Assembly: GCF_003991155.1 (NCBI RefSeq) | Contig: NZ_CP031293.1 | Source of the DNA: Escherichia coli | GTDB lineage: Bacteria > Pseudomonadota > Gammaproteobacteria > Enterobacterales > Enterobacteriaceae | Length of the DNA stretch: 64,000 nucleotides | Direction: 5' to 3' (one strand) | Shown here: positions 1-26,300 of the stretch, in pieces | Layout of the letters: each line of letters starts with the position of its first letter | Numbering within the stretch: position 1 is the stretch's first letter | Made by a program: the position numbers and the translations under genes | Notes under the pieces: generated by a model | What the model was told of the DNA's origin: nothing | Seen by the model: the letters and a program-made list of their open reading frames with translations, nothing else | Database searches by the model: none

Positions 1-1230
1 GGCTTTGGTGGTGAAGTACGGGGTGAAGATGGCTTCAAGCTGATCTGCCGCAATTCCCTTACCGCTGTCGGTAACGCTGATTTTCACACCCGTGCCGCTT
101 TCGCTGGCCGTCACGCTAATCACGCCATGCTGACCAATCGCCTGAATAGCATTGAGATAGAGATTCAACAGGACCTGAGTCAGCCTGTCCGGATCGGCCT
201 GAATTTCCGGTAATGTGTCGTTGGCGGTAAAGCGTAACTGGATCTCCCGGCTGTTTGCATCCTGGCTTACCAGCTGTAATGAGTGGTTAATCAGCGTGTT
301 GAGATCCACCGCCTGCAAAGCCAGATGCGTTGGCTTAACCAGTTCCAGCAACTCGCTTACCACGCGGTTTAAACGGTCGGCTTCTTTCGCCATCACCTGC
401 GCCAATTGATGCGCTTCTCCCCCTGCTGGCGCGCGTTCGGCAAAGTATTTCGCCAGTCCTTTAATCGAGGAAAGTGGGTTACGGATTTCGTGGGCAACGC
501 CTGCCGCAAGATGCCCCAGCGCCACCAGCTTCTCTTTGCGCTTCATTTCATCTTGTAGAAGCTGGCGCGAGCGCAGATAGCGGCGATACCAGAAGAATGA
601 CAATACGCTTGCCAGCAAGACCGTCGCCAGGGCGAAGAGGATAATCAGGGTGTTTCTCTGCTCACGATCTTCGGCACTCACAATATTACTGGCGTCGAAA
701 GCGATGAAAATTGCTTGTGGTGTTGCGGCATACTGCTGCATATGGCGCATCCGGTGCATTCCAGCAGCAAACATCGGTTGAAACTGGCGATAAATTTCCA
801 GAACAGGCTCGCCGTCTGCGCTATCGATCCGCCGCCACGCTTCTTCATCTCCAGGATGTAACTGCTGCATTTCCTGCGGGGAATAAAGCTGTTTTCCCAC
901 CATGCCGGAGTTGCTATGCATCACGATTGTTCCTTGTTCATCCGTGACCGCAAACCAACGTACTCCAGGCTGCCCGGCCATTTCTTCCAGTAAGGCCTGC
1001 TGCTGCGCATGATGCATGCGCATCCCCATGCCGACGCGCGAGCCGGATTCAAGAGCGCGAATAAGTACACTGCCTTTTTCCAGCAGCGTTTGTCTGGCGG
1101 CGGCAGTCTCGCGCCCATAATCGCGAATCACCGTCACCGCAAACAACCCTACCAGCCCAACAATGACCACGGGGAGGATCGCGCTTAACCATTTAGCTAA
1201 GGAGTCTTTAGAACGTTGCATAAAACGCAT
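1..1230 (-). CDS. zraS: Sensor histidine kinase ZraS (3' end truncated by window edge)
   Basis: Reverse frame open from ATG at 1230 to the window edge; N-terminus MRFMQRSKDSLAKWLSAILPVVIVGLVG; H-box LGHLAAGVAHEIRNPL near 480-540; divergent from zraP as in E. coli. Confidence 0.9.
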   Translation of the reverse strand, partial: MRFMQRSKDSLAKWLSAILPVVIVGLVGLFAVTVIRDYGRETAAARQTLLEKGSVLIRALESGSRVGMGMRMHHAQQQALLEEMAGQPGVRWFAVTDEQGTIVMHSNSGMVGKQLYSPQEMQQLHPGDEEAWRRIDSADGEPVLEIYRQFQPMFAAGMHRMRHMQQYAATPQAIFIAFDASNIVSAEDREQRNTLIILFALATVLLASVLSFFWYRRYLRSRQLLQDEMKRKEKLVALGHLAAGVAHEIRNPLSSIKGLAKYFAERAPAGGEAHQLAQVMAKEADRLNRVVSELLELVKPTHLALQAVDLNTLINHSLQLVSQDANSREIQLRFTANDTLPEIQADPDRLTQVLLNLYLNAIQAIGQHGVISVTASESGTGVKISVTDSGKGIAADQLEAIFTPYFTTKA

Positions 1231-1257
1231 CTTCTTTGCCTGCTCATCCCTTTCTGA

Positions 1258-1274
1258 CAGCAGAAATCATGCCA
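1258..1274 (-). promoter_or_regulatory. Putative sigma54 (-24/-12) promoter for zraSR
   Basis: Minus strand reads TGGCATgatttCTGCT, a GG-N10-GC arrangement upstream of the zraS start. Confidence 0.45.
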
Positions 1275-1325
1275 TCTTTTATCAGCGCTTACCCTGCGCT
1301 GTAACACAAAGGCTTAAGTTTCAAT

Positions 1326-1371
1326 GAGTAAAAATGACTCGCTACCCGCAGCAGGCGAGTCATTTTTACTC
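1326..1371. promoter_or_regulatory. ZraR enhancer-binding inverted repeat (two 17-bp arms)
   Basis: GAGTAAAAATGACTCGC and its exact reverse complement GCGAGTCATTTTTACTC separated by 12 bp, in the zraS-zraP intergenic region. Confidence 0.7.
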
Positions 1372-1403
1372 GTTTATCATGCCAGATTACCCGTCATATC
1401 AGC

Positions 1404-1419
1404 GTTTCATCGTTGGCAC
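1404..1419 (+). promoter_or_regulatory. sigma54 promoter of zraP
   Basis: TGGCACggaagaTGCA matches the TGGCAC-N5-TTGCA consensus about 45 bp upstream of the zraP ATG. Confidence 0.7.
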
Positions 1420-1464
1420 GGAAGATGCAATACCCGAAGTAAGACAACCACTGGAGGATTAACC

Positions 1465-1890
1465 ATGAAACGGAACACGAAAATTGCCCTGGTAATGATG
1501 GCGCTTTCAGCAATGGCGATGGGATCGACATCTGCATTTGCTCACGGCGGACACGGTATGTGGCAGCAAAATGCCGCGCCTTTGACCAGCGAACAACAGA
1601 CAGCGTGGCAGAAAATCCATAATGACTTTTACGCTCAAAGCAGCGCACTGCAACAGCAACTGGTGACGAAGCGTTATGAATACAATGCCCTGTTAGCCGC
1701 GAACCCACCGGATAGCAGCAAAATTAACGCGGTCGCCAAAGAGATGGAGAATTTGCGTCAGTCGTTAGATGAGTTACGGGTGAAACGAGATATTGCGATG
1801 GCTGAAGCGGGTATTCCGCGCGGTACCGGAATGGGCATGGGTTACGGTGGTTGCGATGGTGGCGGTCATATGGGTATGGGCCACTGGTAA
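1465..1890 (+). CDS. zraP: Zinc resistance-associated periplasmic protein ZraP
   Basis: ORF in frame with the 1324..1890 track entry; start chosen at MKRNTKIALVMMALSAMAMG (signal peptide) after a GGAGG RBS; Gly/Met/His-rich C-terminus; 141 aa. Confidence 0.92.
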   Translation: MKRNTKIALVMMALSAMAMGSTSAFAHGGHGMWQQNAAPLTSEQQTAWQKIHNDFYAQSSALQQQLVTKRYEYNALLAANPPDSSKINAVAKEMENLRQSLDELRVKRDIAMAEAGIPRGTGMGMGYGGCDGGGHMGMGHW

Positions 1891-1891
1891 A

Positions 1892-2593
1892 TCAGAACGT
1901 TTTCTCGTTGGGTTGCCAGCGACAGAAATCAGAGTTTGCCACCAACAGTAATTGCGAACCTTCGGGCGCTTCCAGCCATGCCACGCTGACATCAACAGAA
2001 GAGCGGCTCTGGCGGCGCTCGATATGCGCTATCGCCTGCGAATCTAAATCAGGTTTAATGGTTTGCCCTTCGCAGGTGGTCACGGTCTGTTCCATCGCAT
2101 GCCAGCGCCCCTGGCGCAGCACGACTCTCCCCTGACGTAAGGCATCGCTAATCTGGCGGATCTGATCAGCACGATAACGGTATAAATCGATTTGGTCGTT
2201 AGAAAGCTGCTGCTTTTCCCCATCGGATTCACGTTGCATAAAGCTCAGATCGCCGCGATCGTCAAAACGCGCGCGAATGTTCACCGGCGGTTTGCTGTAA
2301 ACATTGATATTGATGAGCGTGAGGTTATCGCCCTGCCAGCGATACTCTCGCGTGGTGGTATCGCCACTGCGCCACGGGCTAAACACGGCAAGCAGATGCA
2401 CATTATCGCCGCTGTCTTTTCGCCAGATGCGTACCGCGCCCTGGTCTTCAGCAAATCCACTGGCGGTAAAGGGAGGAAGTGAAGAGTTGTGACTACAGGC
2501 AGTGAGAAACAGAACGCCTGCCAGCATCAATGATCGACGCCAGAAAGACAAAAGGGGTGAAACCACCCCTTCGTTAAAACTGTTCACTGCCAC
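1892..2593 (-). CDS. yjaH: DUF1481-type lipoprotein YjaH
   Basis: 233-aa ORF with a lipoprotein-like N-terminus (LAGVLFLTACS); position between zraP and hupA as in K-12; exact start uncertain by a few codons. Confidence 0.85.
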   Translation of the reverse strand: MAVNSFNEGVVSPLLSFWRRSLMLAGVLFLTACSHNSSLPPFTASGFAEDQGAVRIWRKDSGDNVHLLAVFSPWRSGDTTTREYRWQGDNLTLININVYSKPPVNIRARFDDRGDLSFMQRESDGEKQQLSNDQIDLYRYRADQIRQISDALRQGRVVLRQGRWHAMEQTVTTCEGQTIKPDLDSQAIAHIERRQSRSSVDVSVAWLEAPEGSQLLLVANSDFCRWQPNEKTF

Positions 2594-2599
2594 GCAATC

Positions 2600-2872
2600 T
2601 TACTTAACTGCGTCTTTCAGTGCCTTGCCAGAAACAAATGCCGGTACGTTAGCAGCGGCAATTTTGATTTCTTTACCGGTCTGCGGGTTGCGGCCAGTAC
2701 GCTCAGCGCGGTGGTTCACTTTGAAGGTACCGAAACCAACCAGTTGTACAGCATCGCCTTCTTTCAGAGACTCAGTAATTGCAGCCAGAGTGGACTCCAG
2801 AGCAGCTTTAGCCTGGGTTTTGGACAGTTCTGCTTTCTCTGCAATTACATCAATCAGTTGAGTCTTGTTCAT
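2600..2872 (-). CDS. hupA: DNA-binding protein HU-alpha
   Basis: 90-aa [31 protein letters not shown]...; classic HU sequence. Confidence 0.97.
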
Positions 2873-3058
2873 AAGTTATCCTTACAATGTGTTTATCGCT
2901 TGCTAAGCATCGAGTGCGACGGAAATGCCAGAATAGCACTCTCCTGCATACACGCACCGATAGCCACTTTTTTTCGCCCCCCAAATGTAGACCAGACGGG
3001 GGGCGAAAGGGAAGACTCCAGGTACGACAAATCAGGCGTTAAATCACGTTTTCTGGTC

Positions 3059-3649
3059 TTATTGCTGAAAAATTATACCAATATTGCTCTCACCCGCCTC
3101 ACGCAGGTCTGCCCTAAGGCCTTTTATCAGCTCGATATCGCGTTCTTCGCACTCAGCTAAAAGTCGGAATATTTCCCACTGAATGTCCCATTCTTGCTCT
3201 ACAGCTGGGTTTTCTTTGAGCTCTTCATCGCTCATTTCGCGACCAGCCTGAGTCATTTCCAGCATCGCAACGGTCGTGATGGAGGTCTTACTCACTTCCA
3301 CCGCGTGTTCGAGCGTTTCACCACTCAAACGCGAATGGACCAGTTCACTTAACGCCACGCATGCATCGATTGCCGGATAAACGCCGTACAGATCGAAATC
3401 ATCGGCTGAAGGAATCGCTTCTTCAAATTTCTCCAGTTGGCTGTCGAAATTTACTTTTGCGTCTTTGACGGTCAGCGTTTCCCAGATGAGATCGAGAATG
3501 CGGCGGTAAATCTGCCCATCACCAAAACCAGTTTGCTGACAGAATACGGCGTAATTAGGGTACATGCGTTCGCATAAGCAGGCCATAAAAGTGACGTGCT
3601 GCCAGCTTTCCAGGCGCTCCAGACGCAGATGAATTGGGTTTTGTAACAT
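3059..3649 (-). CDS. yjaG: DUF416 protein YjaG
   Basis: 196-aa ORF; conserved synteny between hupA and nfi. Confidence 0.88.
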   Translation of the reverse strand: MLQNPIHLRLERLESWQHVTFMACLCERMYPNYAVFCQQTGFGDGQIYRRILDLIWETLTVKDAKVNFDSQLEKFEEAIPSADDFDLYGVYPAIDACVALSELVHSRLSGETLEHAVEVSKTSITTVAMLEMTQAGREMSDEELKENPAVEQEWDIQWEIFRLLAECEERDIELIKGLRADLREAGESNIGIIFQQ

Positions 3650-3691
3650 GTTGAGTTCTCAAATACGGAAATTATCCGCAGTTTACCTGAA

Positions 3692-4363
3692 TTAGGGCTG
3701 ATTTGCTGTATAGCGCACGAACGCCGGACGTTCCGAGGCCACCGCGTCCGCCCAGCGCGTTGGCTCCGGCAGACGATAGCCTTTCATGCAGCGTTGTACC
3801 CACGCCAGCGCGCTGTCCACGCTAACCCGATGGCCGGTAGCGATAAACAATGGGTTACAGCGCGCTTTGCTGCGCCAGACCCAGGCCAGCTGCTCGCCTT
3901 TATCCATCAGTGGGGCCAGCGCGCCCGGTTCGCTGGAGAGCGGTTCGAATTTACCGCAGAGCCGTTTTTTCGCCACGCCTATCGTTGGCACATCCACCAA
4001 TAAGCCAAAATGGCTGGCGACACCAAGACGGCGAGGATGCGAGATCCCGTGACCATCGACAAACACTAAATCCGGCTTTTGTGACAGCATCTCCCACGCT
4101 GCCAGCAGCGCAGGATATTCGCGGAAGGAGAGAAAACCTGGAATATAAGGCATGGTGGTGGCGATGCGGGCCACTTTATACTCCACCAGCTCAAGCGAGG
4201 GGTATTTCAGCAGCACCATCGCCGCTCGCGTCACTTCTCCGCCCTGCTCAAATCCGACATCGGCTCCGGCGATCAGATCCGGTGGATCTTTATCGAGTCG
4301 ATCCTCGCGGATCACAGAAGAAGCCAGTTCGATTTGTTGAGCGCGTAATGACGCGAGATCCAT
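3692..4363 (-). CDS. nfi: Endonuclease V
   Basis: 223-aa ORF; synteny downstream of hemE; sequence consistent with E. coli Nfi. Confidence 0.93.
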
Positions 4364-4372
4364 AATCGCTCC

Positions 4373-5437
4373 TTAGCGGTGATACTGTTCAGACAAGCGA
4401 TGCACTGCCTCCACAAACACGCCAGCATGTTCTGGCGGCACATCCTGATGAATGCCGTGACCAAGGTTAAAGACATGACCTTCGCCGTGACCGAAACCGG
4501 CAAGTATAGTCGCAACTTCTTCTTCAATGCGGGCAGGCGGTGCGTACAGCATCGACGGATCCATATTACCCTGCAACGCGACTTTATTGCCCACGCGGCG
4601 GCGCGCATCGGCGATGTCCGTTGTCCAGTCGAGGCCCAGCGCATCGCAACCGGTTTCTGCCATCGCTTCCAGCCACTGTCCGCCACCTTTGGTAAACAGC
4701 GTGACCGGTACGCGGCGACCGTCGTTTTCACGCAGTAAACCATCAACAATTTTATGCATGTAATAGAGCGAGAACTGTTGATAATCGCGCCCGGTAAGCA
4801 CGCCGCCCCAGGTGTCGAAAATCATCACTGCCTGAGCACCGGCTTTAATCTGCGCATTCAGATACAAAGTGACGCTTTTCGCCAGTTTATCGAGTAGCGC
4901 GTGCAGCGCCTGCGGATCGGCATACATCATTTTTTTGATCACGGTGAAGGCTTTGCTGCTGCCGCCTTCCACCATGTAGGTCGCCAGCGTCCACGGGCTG
5001 CCAGAAAAACCAATCAGCGGCACTTCGCCTTTCAGTTCGCGACGAATGGTACGCACCGCGTTCATCACGTAACCCAGCTCATCTTCCGGGTCCGGAATTG
5101 GCAGTTTATCGACGTCGGCTTTGCAGGTGACTGGCGAGGTAAAACGCGGACCTTCTCCGGCTTCAAAATAGAGCCCTAACCCCATCGCGTCCGGCACGGT
5201 GAGGATATCGGAAAAGAGGATCGCCGCATCCAGCGGGTAGCGACGCAGCGGTTGCAAAGTCACTTCGCACGCCAGCTCGGCGTTTTTGCACAGCGACATA
5301 AAATCGCCCGCCTGGGCGCGCGTGGCTTTATATTCCGGTAGATAGCGACCCGCCTGGCGCATCATCCATACTGGAGTGACATCAACGGGCTGGCGCAGCA
5401 GCGCCCGCAGATAACGATCGTTTTTAAGTTCGGTCAT
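4373..5437 (-). CDS. hemE: Uroporphyrinogen decarboxylase
   Basis: 354-aa [39 protein letters not shown] (URO-D signature). Confidence 0.96.
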
Positions 5438-5476
5438 TTTGGCTGTTCCTTAGTGCGTCAGGCGGTCAGTGTATCA

Positions 5477-6250
5477 TCACTCATACTCTGCCCGACACAT
5501 CGCCACTGTATCTTCTATCAGACGGCGCGCTACGGTGCCGGGCGGCGGGAGTAACGGCAAATCGTCATAGCGATACCAGTTCGCCTCAAGCAATTCTTTC
5601 GGGTCGATCACGATCTCGCCGCTGTCATATTCCGCCATAAACGCGGTCATTAAAGACTGAGGAAACGGCCACGGCTGGGAAGTCACGTAACGCAAGTTTT
5701 TAACTTTAATTCCGCTCTCTTCCATCACTTCCCGCGCGACAGCCTGCTCGAGGGTTTCGCCCACTTCGACGAATCCGGCAAGTACCGTATGGACACCGTT
5801 ACGATGGCTGGTATGCTGGGCGAGGAGGATCGAATCATCGCGACGGATGGCAACAATAATGCAGGGGGCGATTTGCGGGTAGTAACGCTCACGGCAATGG
5901 CTGCACAGCATCGCCCATTCGGTTTTACTTGGATACATTTCATGCCCGCAGTAACCACAGTATTTATGCGATCGGTAAAACTCTGCCAGTTGTACGCCTC
6001 GTCCGGCCAGTTGAAACAGCCCAACATCGAGATCAATGACCTGACGTACCGACCCCATATCGTGACGCCGCTGCTGTTGTACTAACCAAACAGGTTCCCC
6101 CTGCCATTCGCCGATTTGTAGTGCGCGCTGACCCACAAGATCGAAATTTGCCGCTTCGCCATATGGCAATTCTCCCTTCGGCAACCATAATTTTTGTTCA
6201 TGGCTGACGACCCACCAGCCGTGATCTAATTTTTCAATTATACGATCCAT
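5477..6250 (-). CDS. nudC: NADH pyrophosphatase (Nudix)
   Basis: 257-aa ORF with zinc-ribbon CGYCGHEM...CSHC and a Nudix box. Confidence 0.94.
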
Positions 6251-23339: not shown

Positions 23340-26300
23340 TTACTCGTCTTCCAGTTCGATGTTGATACCCAGCGAACGAATCTCTTTCAACAATACGTTG
23401 AAGGATTCTGGCATGCCCGGCTCCATCTGATGGTTGCCGTCCACGATGTTTTTATACATCTTAGTACGACCGTTCACGTCATCAGACTTAACGGTGAGCA
23501 TTTCCTGCAGGGTGTATGCTGCGCCGTATGCTTCCAGCGCCCACACTTCCATCTCCCCGAAACGCTGACCACCGAACTGTGCCTTACCACCCAGCGGCTG
23601 CTGAGTAACCAGGCTGTAAGAACCGGTGGAACGCGCGTGCATCTTGTCGTCGACCAGGTGGTTCAGTTTCAGCATGTACATGTAACCAACGGTTACCGGA
23701 CGCTCGAACTGTTCACCAGTGCGGCCGTCGTACAGGCGGATCTGACCAGAAGTCGGCAGGTCGCCAAGTTTCAGCAGCTCTTTAATTTCTGCTTCTTTCG
23801 CACCGTCGAAGACCGGCGTTGCGATTGGCATACCTTTGCGCAGGTTTTCAGCCAGACGCATAACTTCTTCATCGCTGAAGGTACTCAGGTCAACTTTCTG
23901 ACGAACGTCAGCGCCCAGATCGTACGCACGCTGGATGAATTCGCGCAGTTTCGCGACTTCTTGCTGCTGTTTCAGCATGGCGTTGATCTTGTCGCCGATA
24001 CCTTTCGCAGCCATACCCAGGTGGGTTTCGAGGATCTGACCAATGTTCATACGAGACGGTACGCCCAGCGGGTTCAGTACGATGTCTACCGGCGTACCGT
24101 TTTCATCGTAAGGCATATCTTCGATCGGGTTGATCTTAGAAATTACACCCTTGTTACCATGACGACCTGCCATCTTGTCACCAGGCTGGATACGGCGTTT
24201 AACCGCCAGATATACCTTAACAATCTTCAGCACGCCCGGTGCCAGATCGTCGCCCTGGGTGATTTTGCGGCGTTTCGCTTCGAGTTTCTTCTCGAACTCG
24301 TGTTTCAGTTCGTCATACTGCTCAGCCAGCTGTTCCAGCTGATTTTGTTTCTCTTCGTCGGTCAGGCCCAGCTCCAGCCAGCGATCGCGCGGCAGTTTGT
24401 CGAGCTTCTCAGCTTCAACGCCACCGGCTACCAGCACAGCACGGATACGGCTGAACAGACCCGCTTCGAGGATTTGCAGTTCTTCAGACAGGTCTTTCTT
24501 CGCCTGTTTGAGCTGCATTTCTTCGATTTCCAGCGCACGTTTGTCTTTTTCTACGCCATCGCGAGTAAAGACCTGAACGTCGATAACCGTACCGGATACA
24601 CCGTTTGGTACGCGCAGAGAAGAGTCTTTAACGTCAGACGCTTTCTCACCGAAGATCGCACGCAGCAGTTTTTCTTCTGGGGTCAGCTGAGTTTCACCTT
24701 TCGGCGTTACCTTACCAACCAGAATGTCGCCACCGGTCACTTCCGCACCAATGTAAACGATACCGGATTCATCCAGTTTGGAGAGAGCAGCTTCACCCAC
24801 GTTCGGGATGTCAGCGGTGATCTCTTCCGGCCCCAGCTTGGTATCACGGGACACACACGCCAGTTCCTGAATATGGATGGTGGTGAAACGGTCTTCCTGA
24901 ACAACACGCTCGGATACGAGGATGGAGTCTTCGAAGTTGTAACCATTCCACGGCATGAACGCTACGCGCATGTTCTGACCAAGCGCCAGTTCACCGAGGT
25001 CGGTGGACGGACCGTCTGCCAGCACGTCGCCACGTTCTACCGGTTCACCCAGAGACACACACGGCATCTGGTTGATACAGGTGTTCTGGTTAGAACGGGT
25101 GTACTTGGTCAGGTTGTAGATGTCGATACCTGCTTCACCCGGATACATCTCGTCTTCGTTAACTTTGATAACGATACGGGAAGCATCCACGTACTGAACG
25201 ACACCACCACGTTTAGCAACCGCAGTTACACCGGAGTCAACGGCAACAGCACGTTCCATACCCGTACCAACCAGCGGCTTATCAGCACGCAGAGTCGGAA
25301 CGGCCTGACGTTGCATGTTCGCCCCCATCAATGCACGGTTGGCGTCATCGTGTTCCAGGAACGGGATCAGGGACGCACCGACGGATACCACCTGCTGGGT
25401 GGATACGTCCATGTAGTCAACCTGGTCACGGCTGAACAAGCTGGATTCGCCTTTGCTACGGCAAGTTACCAGGTCTTCTACGAAGTGGCCTTCTTCATCC
25501 AGGTTGGAGTTCGCCTGGGCGATAACGTAGTTGCCTTCTTCGATAGCAGACAGGTAGTGAATTTCGTCAGTTACAACACCGTCGGTCACTTTACGATACG
25601 GAGTCTCAAGGAAGCCGTATTCGTTAGTCTGCGCGTATACAGACAGGGAGTTGATCAGACCGATGTTCGGACCTTCAGGGGTTTCGATTGGACATACGCG
25701 ACCGTAGTGAGTCGGGTGTACGTCTCGAACTTCGAAGCCTGCACGTTCACGGGTCAGACCACCCGGGCCGAGTGCGGAGATACGACGTTTGTGCGTAATC
25801 TCAGACAGCGGGTTGTTCTGGTCCATAAACTGAGACAGCTGGCTGGAACCGAAGAACTCTTTCACTGCTGCGGAAATCGGCTTGGCGTTGATCATATCCT
25901 GAGGCATCAGGGTATCCAGATCGCCCAGAGACAAACGCTCTTTCACCGCACGCTCTACACGTACCAGGCCAACGCGGAACTGGTTTTCCGCCATTTCGCC
26001 AACGGAACGGATACGACGGTTGCCGAGGTGGTCGATATCATCGACTTCGCCTTTACCGTTACGGATATCGATGAGCTTTTTCATAACATCAATGATGTCG
26101 TCTTTGCTCAGGATACCGGAACCTTCGATTTCTTCGCGCAGCAGAGAACGGTTGAACTTCATACGACCAACCGCAGACAGGTCATAGCGGTCTTCGGAGA
26201 AGAACAGGTTCTCGAACAGGCTTTCAGCTGCTTCACGAGTCGGCGGCTCGCCAGGGCGCATCATGCGGTAGATTTCTACCAGTGCGCTCAGACGGTCGTT

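What the first reader, a model, noticed from the sequence alone, without database searches (positions are those of the whole stretch)
1231..1464. Compact divergent sigma54 control region for zraP and zraSR with a perfect 17-bp inverted-repeat enhancer
Two -24/-12-type promoters face outward and flank a perfect inverted repeat (two 17-bp arms, 12-bp spacer) that fits the known ZraR-dependent activation of zraP and zraSR. The architecture is fully intact, suggesting the envelope-stress zinc response is functional in this strain.
Basis: partly seen in the sequence, partly recalled or inferred. Interest (0 to 1): 0.15.

Follow-up and report, generated by a model that had tools for sequence, protein, structure and literature searches.

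The report
Known zraP–zraSR sigma-54 control region
This is the already well-characterised E. coli switch region between the zraP and zraSR genes, where the regulator ZraR binds and turns on two outward-facing sigma-54 promoters. It is correctly described and ordinary.

Summary
Window 1231-1464 is exactly the 234-bp zraS/zraP intergenic region of E. coli. It holds a perfect inverted repeat (1326-1342 / 1355-1371, 12-bp spacer), the longest in the whole 64-kb window. Two outward-facing -24/-12 motifs flank it: TGGCACGGAAGATGCA (1414-1429, +) and TGGCATGATTTCTGCT (1274-1259, -).

Promoters and repeat are base-for-base identical to K-12. In K-12, these exact motifs lie under sigma-54 ChIP-seq peaks. 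The strongest ZraR ChIP-exo peak maps to window 1335-1367, inside the repeat.

In 16 taxa from five genera, both promoters and two 15-bp cores (GRGTAAAAATGACYC / GRGTCATTTTTACTC) are conserved. The 16-bp spacer between the cores keeps its length but not its sequence. Each "arm" therefore looks like one dyad-symmetric ZraR dimer site (GAGT-N7-ACTC). The perfect 17-nt pairing is seen only in some Escherichia sequences.

Caveats on "fully intact, hence functional":
- zraR and the 3' end of zraS lie outside the window.
- The strain carries a rare 3-bp deletion in the zraS leader.
- Its ZraS sensor domain is only 63% identical to the studied K-12 allele.

Interest is low.

The parts
1..1230 (-). 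zraS (sensor histidine kinase), first 410 codons. The gene runs off the window's left end, and zraR lies wholly outside the window.
   Evidence: Translation aligns with K-12 ZraS and is identical to ZraS of NZ_CP029747. RefSeq annotation.
1231..1248 (-). Predicted zraSR mRNA leader, 18 nt here and 21 nt in K-12. It carries a 3-bp (AGA/TCT) deletion directly before the ATG.
   Evidence: The transcription start is inferred from the -24 G at 1272 and the -12 C at 1260. The deletion is shown. The exact allele is in 45 genomes against 4,177 with the K-12 form.
1259..1275 (-). PzraSR, a sigma-54 -24/-12 promoter: ATGGCATGATTTCTGCT (GG at 1273-1272, GC at 1261-1260).
   Evidence: Pattern match. Verbatim motif of sigma-54 ChIP-seq peak OS39 in K-12. 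The 16-nt core is identical in 13 of 16 taxa and differs by a single substitution in the other three. The Salmonella variant TGGCATGATCTCTGCT was shown to bind sigma-54 by ChIP-chip.
1290..1310 (.). Two short semi-conserved boxes between PzraSR and the enhancer (about TANCCCTG at 1290-1297 and ACACAA at 1305-1310). Function unknown.
   Evidence: Anchored cross-genus alignment. ACACAA is invariant in Escherichia and in five of the six Citrobacter sequences, and it degrades in C. rodentium, Salmonella, Kosakonia and [Enterobacter] lignolyticus.
1326..1342 (.). Left arm of the inverted repeat, taken as ZraR dimer site 1. The conserved 15-bp core is GAGTAAAAATGACTC (1326-1340), with internal dyad GAGT-N7-ACTC centred at 1333.
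   Evidence: The core GRGTAAAAAYGACYC is present in all 16 taxa. ZraR ChIP-exo peak_9 covers 1335-1367.
1343..1354 (.). Spacer of the repeat. The sequence is free and the length is fixed.
   Evidence: The cores are separated by exactly 16 bp in all 16 taxa, with no sequence conservation. Within E. coli, substitutions concentrate in the spacer and the outer flanks, and the arms are almost invariant.
1355..1371 (.). Right arm of the inverted repeat, taken as ZraR dimer site 2. The conserved 15-bp core is GAGTCATTTTTACTC (1357-1371), centred at 1364, which is 31 bp (about 3 helical turns) from site 1.
   Evidence: E2348/69 and several other genera have GGGT at the inner end, so the repeat is imperfect there.
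1413..1429 (+). PzraP, a sigma-54 -24/-12 promoter: TTGGCACGGAAGATGCA (GG at 1415-1416, GC at 1427-1428). Predicted start near 1440.
   Evidence: Verbatim motif of sigma-54 ChIP-seq peak OS38. Nearly invariant in 16 taxa. The same core sequence was shown to bind sigma-54 in Salmonella.
1440..1464 (+). Predicted 25-nt zraP leader with Shine-Dalgarno GGAGG (1453-1457).
   Evidence: Read from the sequence. The 25-nt distance agrees with the distance column for zraP in PMC4591121.
1465..1890 (+). zraP (periplasmic Zn-binding chaperone and modulator of ZraS), 141 aa.
   Evidence: Two amino-acid differences from K-12. Carries Pfam PF13801.

Best explanation
The region is the shared, bidirectional enhancer-promoter module of the ZraPSR envelope-stress/zinc system.

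Mechanism, as established for K-12 and the NtrC family:
1. Periplasmic Zn2+ or Pb2+, or envelope stress, activates the kinase ZraS, which phosphorylates the NtrC-family activator ZraR.
2. ZraR dimers bind the two mirror-image sites through their C-terminal Fis-type helix-turn-helix domains. Each site is GAGT-N7-ACTC. The centres are at 1333 and 1364, 31 bp or about three helical turns apart, so both lie on one face of the DNA.
3. The bound dimers assemble into an ATPase ring.
4. By DNA looping the ring contacts sigma-54 RNA polymerase held in closed complexes at PzraP (start near 1440; sites at about -76 and -107) and PzraSR (start near 1248; sites at about -85 and -116). ATP hydrolysis then drives open-complex formation.

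One enhancer thus drives both the effector/feedback gene zraP and autoregulation of zraSR.

Shown here: the sequence elements, their statistical oddity, their identity to K-12, their coincidence with published sigma-54 and ZraR occupancy, and their cross-genus conservation with fixed spacing.

Inferred: dimer-per-site stoichiometry, looping, same-face phasing, and activity in this particular strain.
For: - Identity to K-12. The region is identical across both promoters and the enhancer; the only difference is a 3-bp indel next to the zraS ATG.
- Sigma-54 occupancy. The ChIP-seq peak motifs TTGGCACGGAAGATGCA and ATGGCATGATTTCTGCT are verbatim at 1413-1429 (+) and 1275-1259 (-).
- ZraR occupancy. 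ChIP-exo peak_9 (S/N 73) maps to 1335-1367. In genomic SELEX, 81 of 86 clones came from this spacer.
- Regulation. A zraR knockout lowers zraP by log2 12.7 and zraS by log2 3.2 under ZnCl2.
- Statistics. It is the longest perfect inverted repeat in the window and exceeds all 30 shuffles. Two of the window's three matches to TGGCAY-N6-TGCW fall in this spacer.
- Phylogenetic footprint. In 16 taxa (Escherichia spp., Citrobacter spp., Salmonella, Kosakonia, [Enterobacter] lignolyticus) the cores and both promoters are conserved. The cores are always 16 bp apart. The left-core centre to PzraS -24 distance is 59.5-60.5 bp. The right-core centre to PzraP -24 distance is 50.5-51.5 bp in Escherichia and 62.5 bp elsewhere, a difference of 11 bp or one helical turn.
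- Alternatives absent. There is no sigma-70-like promoter and no terminator-like site in 1100-2000.
- Trans factors. In a genome 100% identical over window 1-5600, zraS (458 aa) and zraR (441 aa) are intact, and the ZraR C-terminal DNA-binding segment is identical to K-12.
Against: Nothing contradicts it. The gaps are these:
- The original DNase I footprint paper (Leonhartsberger et al. 2001, J Mol Biol 307:93) is not in the held library. The base-level site assignment therefore rests on the 33-bp ChIP-exo peak plus conservation.
- A 2016 Salmonella review lists the ZraR enhancer sequence as 'not known'.
- A second ChIP-exo peak (S/N 34) lies at the zraP start codon (1455-1480) and is not explained by the two sites.
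- zraR is not in the window.
- The effects of the rare 3-bp leader deletion and of the divergent ZraS sensor allele are untested.
Confidence: 0.95

Rival explanations
1. The repeat is mainly the operator of a different or additional regulator, for example another envelope-stress response regulator, or a structural cruciform. On this reading ZraR acts elsewhere in the spacer.
For: - Each core contains GTAAA, the half-site word of CpxR boxes (my own knowledge, not tested here).
- A baeR knockout changes zraP expression in the mSystems data set, which shows cross-talk.
- The repeat folds stably as single-stranded DNA (-18.8 kcal/mol, z = -8).
- Extra semi-conserved boxes exist at 1290-1310.
Against: - The ZraR ChIP-exo peak sits inside the repeat, and SELEX with pure ZraR selects this spacer.
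- The GTAAA words are inverted, not direct repeats as CpxR needs.
- The baeR effect is most simply indirect.
- No other element in the spacer has comparable conservation apart from the two promoters.
Confidence: 0.03
2. The repeat acts as an RNA hairpin: a terminator, attenuator or small RNA.
For: It has a 17-21 bp stem potential. There is one weak Rfam match to a plant miRNA hairpin model (21.8 bits against a gathering score of 44, E = 0.34).
Against: - It lies upstream of both predicted transcription starts (1248 leftward, 1440 rightward), so neither transcript contains it.
- It has no T-tail and no terminator-like call.
- The Rfam match is below threshold and biologically irrelevant.
- Conservation follows a protein-site pattern. 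The cores are fixed and the inner arm positions 16-17 are free, and no compensatory stem changes were seen.
Confidence: 0.01
3. It is a chance palindrome plus chance GG-N10-GC matches.
For: Loose sigma-54 patterns are common. TGGCAC-N5-TTGCA with up to 2 mismatches gives 32 matches against 25 expected.
Against: - The repeat exceeds all shuffles and every other repeat in the window.
- The stricter motif is enriched and both copies are correctly placed and oriented.
- The elements are conserved across five genera.
- Occupancy has been shown experimentally in K-12.
Confidence: 0.005

Closest known systems
E. coli K-12 zraP-zraSR (hydHG) intergenic region, the ZraR/HydG upstream activating sequence (Leonhartsberger et al. 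2001; RegulonDB)
   Same: The sequence is identical over both sigma-54 promoters and the whole enhancer, with the same genes on both sides. From memory, the 2001 paper describes HydG binding 'two inverted repeats separated by a 14-bp spacer'.
   Different: - A 3-bp deletion in the zraS leader, found in 45 of about 5,100 genomes.
- A ZraS periplasmic domain of the other allele class, 63% identical.
- Two substitutions in ZraP.
NtrC enhancer of glnAp2 (E. coli / Salmonella)
   Same: Two dyad-symmetric dimer sites about three helical turns apart lie upstream of a sigma-54 promoter. They nucleate an oligomer of a phosphorylated NtrC-family response regulator that acts by looping (family knowledge; PMC4987338).
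   Different: The site sequence is different. The ZraR sites are closer to the promoters (about -76 to -116), and one pair serves two divergent sigma-54 promoters.
NorR enhancer in the norR-norVW intergenic region
   Same: It is an NtrC-family activator with sites in a divergent spacer. Its core is GT-(N7)-AC (PMC2831303), the same frame as the ZraR core GAGT-N7-ACTC.
   Different: NorR needs three sites plus IHF, and only norVW is sigma-54-dependent. ZraR has two sites and both flanking promoters are sigma-54 type.

Membership tests
sigma-54 (-24/-12) promoter | GG and GC doublets exactly 10 bp apart within a TGGCAC-N5-TTGCW-like context | tested here: met
   PzraP is TGGCACGGAAGATGCA, 1 mismatch. 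PzraSR is TGGCATGATTTCTGCT, 3 mismatches to the strict consensus but matching TGGCAY-N6-TGCW.
sigma-54 (-24/-12) promoter | Placed and oriented to drive the adjacent gene (short leader, correct strand) | tested here: met
   Predicted starts are 1440 (25 nt before the zraP ATG) and 1248 (18 nt before the zraS ATG), and both face outward.
sigma-54 (-24/-12) promoter | Occupancy by sigma-54 holoenzyme | not testable with these tools
   Shown for identical sequences in K-12 by ChIP-seq (OS38, OS39) and by gSELEX. Shown for the Salmonella orthologues by ChIP-chip. Not measured in this strain.
sigma-54 (-24/-12) promoter | Evolutionary conservation of the -24/-12 elements | tested here: met
   Both motifs are nearly invariant in 16 taxa of five genera, while the flanks diverge.
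ZraR (NtrC-family bEBP) enhancer / UAS | Dyad-symmetric binding sites roughly 70-150 bp upstream of the sigma-54 start | tested here: met
   Two GAGT-N7-ACTC cores are centred at 1333 and 1364. That places them at -107/-76 for zraP and -85/-116 for zraS.
ZraR (NtrC-family bEBP) enhancer / UAS | Bound by ZraR | not testable with these tools
   K-12 ChIP-exo peak_9 maps to window 1335-1367 on identical sequence. gSELEX. The DNase I footprint paper is not held.
ZraR (NtrC-family bEBP) enhancer / UAS | Cognate zraR and zraS genes present and intact | tested here: inconclusive
   zraR is outside the window and zraS is cut at codon 410. Both are intact in NZ_CP029747, which is 100% identical over window 1-5600.
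ZraR (NtrC-family bEBP) enhancer / UAS | Sites and their spacing conserved wherever zraP and zraS are divergent neighbours | tested here: met
   The cores are present and exactly 16 bp apart in all 16 taxa examined.

The most novel reading that the evidence does not exclude
The spacer may hold more than the textbook parts.

1. The semi-conserved boxes at 1290-1297 and 1305-1310, present only on the zraSR side, could bind a further factor such as a bending protein or a second regulator. That would tune autoregulation separately from zraP.
2. The conserved distances, together with an Escherichia-specific deletion of 11 bp (one helical turn) on the zraP side, suggest a strict face-of-helix requirement for this unusually close, shared enhancer.

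Neither point is documented in the papers I could read.
Probability: 0.15. Interest if true: 0.25.

Novelty: already known. Interest (0 to 1): 0.07.

Why it matters
It matters little for discovery. The locus is a textbook example of a two-component, sigma-54-dependent, autoregulated stress circuit, and this copy matches the studied one.

The practical value is as a positive control, because the first-stage reader identified promoters and enhancer correctly from raw sequence.

Three small additions came out of the check:
- A cross-genus ZraR site consensus, GRGTAAAAATGACYC-N16-GRGTCATTTTTACTC, with fixed spacing.
- The point that the 'perfect 17-nt' pairing is lineage-specific rather than functional.
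- The adjacent ZraS sensor-domain dimorphism. Results from K-12 may not transfer to the 77% of E. coli genomes that carry the other sensor allele.

Tried and rejected
- Footprint paper. I tried to read Leonhartsberger et al. 2001 by PubMed id, but it is not held. Literal searches for the arm sequence and for HydG + zraP + inverted repeats found nothing. Other ZraR papers gave no base-level site.
- Loose promoter pattern. TGGCAC-N5-TTGCA with up to 2 mismatches is uninformative (32 found, 25 expected). I replaced it with TGGCAY-N6-TGCW.
- Sigma-70 promoter and terminator scan of 1100-2000: nothing found.
- Rfam scan of 1000-2000: only a sub-threshold plant miRNA hairpin match, dismissed.
- Compensatory change in the internal dyad. 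The A/T to G/C change at core positions 2 and 14 looked compensatory at first. Across 16 taxa it is as often asymmetric as symmetric, so I treat those positions as degenerate R/Y, not as covarying.
- IHF sites. I looked by eye for WATCAR-N4-TTR between the enhancer and the promoters. Only 1-2-mismatch matches turned up (TATCAGCG at 1280 and 1397), and they are not conserved outside Escherichia. No claim is made.
- A third ZraR site under ChIP-exo peak_8 (1455-1480). By eye the best match to the core is only about 10 of 15, and the region is constrained by the ribosome-binding site and start codon. Unresolved.
- Other ZraR-like cores in the window: none with fewer than 3 mismatches.
- PDB search for either ZraS periplasmic-domain allele: no structure. 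The only hit was a weak DcuS-like one for the K-12 allele.
- Literature on the ZraS allele dimorphism: none found in the held library.

Full report
**What is in the sequence.** Window 1-6000 is the E. coli stretch zraS (- strand, start codon at 1230, cut by the window's left end), zraP (+, 1465-1890), yjaH, hupA, yjaG, nfi, hemE and nudC. The finding's coordinates, 1231-1464, are exactly the 234-bp spacer between the two divergent start codons. A 501-bp query around the spacer matches 5,420 of 5,426 complete E. coli genomes, almost always once per genome, with zraS and zraP annotated under the match. Window 1-5600 is 100% identical to NZ_CP029747, strain 2016C-3878.

**Checking the observation.** The repeat is real. 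GAGTAAAAATGACTCGC (1326-1342) and GCGAGTCATTTTTACTC (1355-1371) are perfect reverse complements separated by 12 nt. My scan for perfect inverted repeats with spacers of up to 40 nt ranks it first in the 64-kb window; the runner-up has 12-nt arms. The longest arm in 30 dinucleotide-preserving shuffles was 14 nt.

The promoter-like elements are also real. TGGCAY-N6-TGCW occurs three times in the window against 0.93 expected, and two of those are in this spacer, facing outward: 1414-1429 (+) TGGCACGGAAGATGCA and 1274-1259 (-) TGGCATGATTTCTGCT. A looser consensus search is not informative, with 32 matches against 25 expected. If the second G is taken as -24 and the C as -12, the predicted starts are about 1440 for zraP (25-nt leader) and about 1248 for zraS (18-nt leader).

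**Comparison with the experimentally studied allele.** The spacer is identical to K-12 MG1655 except for a 3-bp (TCT/AGA) deletion directly next to the zraS ATG.

- Bonocora et al. list sigma-54 ChIP-seq peaks OS38 (zraP) and OS39 (zraS) with the motifs TTGGCACGGAAGATGCA and ATGGCATGATTTCTGCT (PMC4591121). These are verbatim at window 1413-1429 (+) and 1275-1259 (-). Their distance values of 25 and 21 fit the leaders inferred here, with the 3-bp indel accounting for 18 against 21.
- The ZraR ChIP-exo data of Choudhary et al. give peak_9 (S/N 72.97) at NC_000913.3 4201786-4201818 (PMC7657598 supplement). Extracting that sequence and locating it in the window gives 1335-1367, inside the repeat.
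- In the same data set a zraR knockout lowers zraP by log2 12.7 and zraS by log2 3.2 under ZnCl2.
- Genomic SELEX with purified ZraR recovered this spacer as the single high-affinity target, in 81 of 86 clones (PMC8249747).
- RpoN holoenzyme SELEX also hits the spacer (PMC8743547).
- In Salmonella, TGGCACGGAAGATGCAAG and TGGCATGATCTCTGCTTA bind sigma-54 and respond to a promiscuous activator (PMC3844500).

**Phylogenetic footprint.** I collected the spacer from 16 taxa. They are Escherichia coli lineages, E. whittamii, E. albertii and a cryptic Escherichia sp.; five Citrobacter from the genome scan; and Salmonella enterica, Kosakonia, [Enterobacter] lignolyticus and C. rodentium through ZraP homologues.

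- Alignment shows four conserved blocks in otherwise divergent sequence: the two promoters and two 15-bp cores, GRGTAAAAATGACYC and GRGTCATTTTTACTC.
- The cores are exactly 16 bp apart in every taxon, while the intervening sequence is free.
E2348/69 and several other genera carry GGGT at the inner end of the right core. The 'perfect 17-nt' pairing is therefore an accident of some Escherichia lineages, not the functional unit.
- Each core is itself a dyad (GAGT-N7-ACTC, often CGAGT-N7-ACTCG). This is what a dimeric helix-turn-helix protein needs. It shares the GT-(N7)-AC frame of the related activator NorR (PMC2831303).
- The core centres (1333 and 1364) are 31 bp apart, about three helical turns.
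- From memory, the 2001 footprint paper describes 'two inverted repeats separated by a 14-bp spacer'. That fits 17-bp dyads at 1325-1341 and 1356-1372. I could not read that paper.

**Geometry.** The distance from the left core centre to the PzraSR GG is 59.5-60.5 bp in all taxa. The distance from the right core centre to the PzraP GG is 50.5-51.5 bp in Escherichia and 62.5 bp in all other genera. Escherichia has therefore lost 11 bp, one helical turn, on the zraP side. This is consistent with a face-of-helix constraint on a close enhancer, but that is an inference.

**Mechanism.** The best explanation is the known one. Phospho-ZraR dimers occupy the two sites and assemble into an AAA+ ring. 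By looping, the ring remodels sigma-54 closed complexes at either flanking promoter, giving Zn/Pb- and envelope-stress-dependent expression of zraP and autoregulation of zraSR (PMC4987338; PMC7657598).

The rivals fare poorly.
- RNA hairpin or terminator. The element lies upstream of both starts and has no T-tail. No terminator or sigma-70 promoter is called. It matches Rfam only below threshold.
- A different regulator. This is not excluded as an addition, but ZraR occupancy is direct.
- Chance. This is excluded.

**Limits of the 'intact, hence functional' claim.** The cis elements are intact. However, zraR and the last 48 codons of zraS are outside the window. They are intact in the identical proxy genome, where ZraR has four substitutions relative to K-12 and an identical C-terminal DNA-binding segment.

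The 3-bp leader deletion is rare. The exact 61-bp window sequence occurs in 45 genomes, against 4,177 with the exact K-12 form. Its effect on zraS translation is unknown.

More striking is the periplasmic sensor domain of ZraS. It is only 63% identical to the K-12 allele and has a 7-residue length difference, while the next 200 cytoplasmic residues are 99.5% identical. Among complete genomes, 4,183 carry the window-type allele and 1,236 the K-12 type, with no intermediates. The K-12 type also occurs in E. whittamii and E. albertii. Both types are about 69-75% identical to the Citrobacter domains. I found no solved structure of either domain and no paper on the dimorphism.

**Verdict.** Interest is low. 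The only loose ends in the spacer itself are two semi-conserved boxes on the zraSR side (1290-1297 and 1305-1310) and a second ZraR ChIP-exo peak over the zraP start codon (1455-1480).

Noticed in passing
window 640-1110 (- strand; ZraS residues ~35-197): The ZraS periplasmic sensor domain is dimorphic in E. coli. The window's allele is at least 95% identical (DNA) in 4,183 complete genomes. The other 1,236, including K-12, are only 60-80% identical over half the query, with no intermediates. At protein level the two types are 63% identical with a 7-aa indel, while the adjacent cytoplasmic 200 aa are 99.5% identical. The K-12 type is also found in E. whittamii and E. albertii. Both types are about as far from each other as from Citrobacter. 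This suggests an old trans-species polymorphism or introgression. The experimentally studied K-12 allele is the minority one.
   Followed up: partly
window 1230/1231 (zraS leader, directly 5' of the ATG): There is a 3-bp deletion (AAG)3 to (AAG)2 relative to K-12 and to every other E. coli sampled, shortening the predicted leader from 21 to 18 nt. The exact allele occurs in only 45 of about 5,100 genomes, against 4,177 with the K-12 form. Its effect on translation is unknown.
   Followed up: partly
window 1290-1297 and 1305-1310: Two short boxes (TANCCCTG and ACACAA) lie between PzraSR and the enhancer. They are conserved in Escherichia and most Citrobacter and decay in more distant genera. 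No known site was recognised.
   Followed up: partly
window 1455-1480: A second published ZraR ChIP-exo peak in K-12 (peak_8, S/N 34) maps over the zraP ribosome-binding site and start codon, downstream of PzraP. It could be cross-linking to the looped polymerase complex or a weak third site.
   Followed up: no
window ~1372-1412 versus L008-L012 and L017-L020: Escherichia lacks 11 bp (one helical turn) between the right ZraR core and PzraP that Citrobacter, Salmonella, Kosakonia and [Enterobacter] lignolyticus all have. The distance is 50.5-51.5 bp against 62.5 bp, while the zraS-side distance stays at 59.5-60.5 bp.
   Followed up: yes
window 1376-1384 (- strand): A second TGGCATGAT word abuts the right core. 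It duplicates the -24 half of PzraSR (direct repeat D5) but has no -12 GC. The word is not conserved even within Escherichia: it changes in E. whittamii, E. albertii and the SCPM strain, and it is absent from other genera. Probably chance.
   Followed up: partly
window 1334-1462 (+): Some RefSeq genomes annotate a 44-aa 'hypothetical protein' inside the spacer, overlapping the enhancer and PzraP (hits H16 and H34). It corresponds to the window's 42-aa ORF and is probably a spurious gene call.
   Followed up: no
window 24229-24244 (- strand): This is the only other exact match in the window to TGGCAY-N6-TGCW (TGGCACCGGGCGTGCT). Its context was not examined.
   Followed up: no
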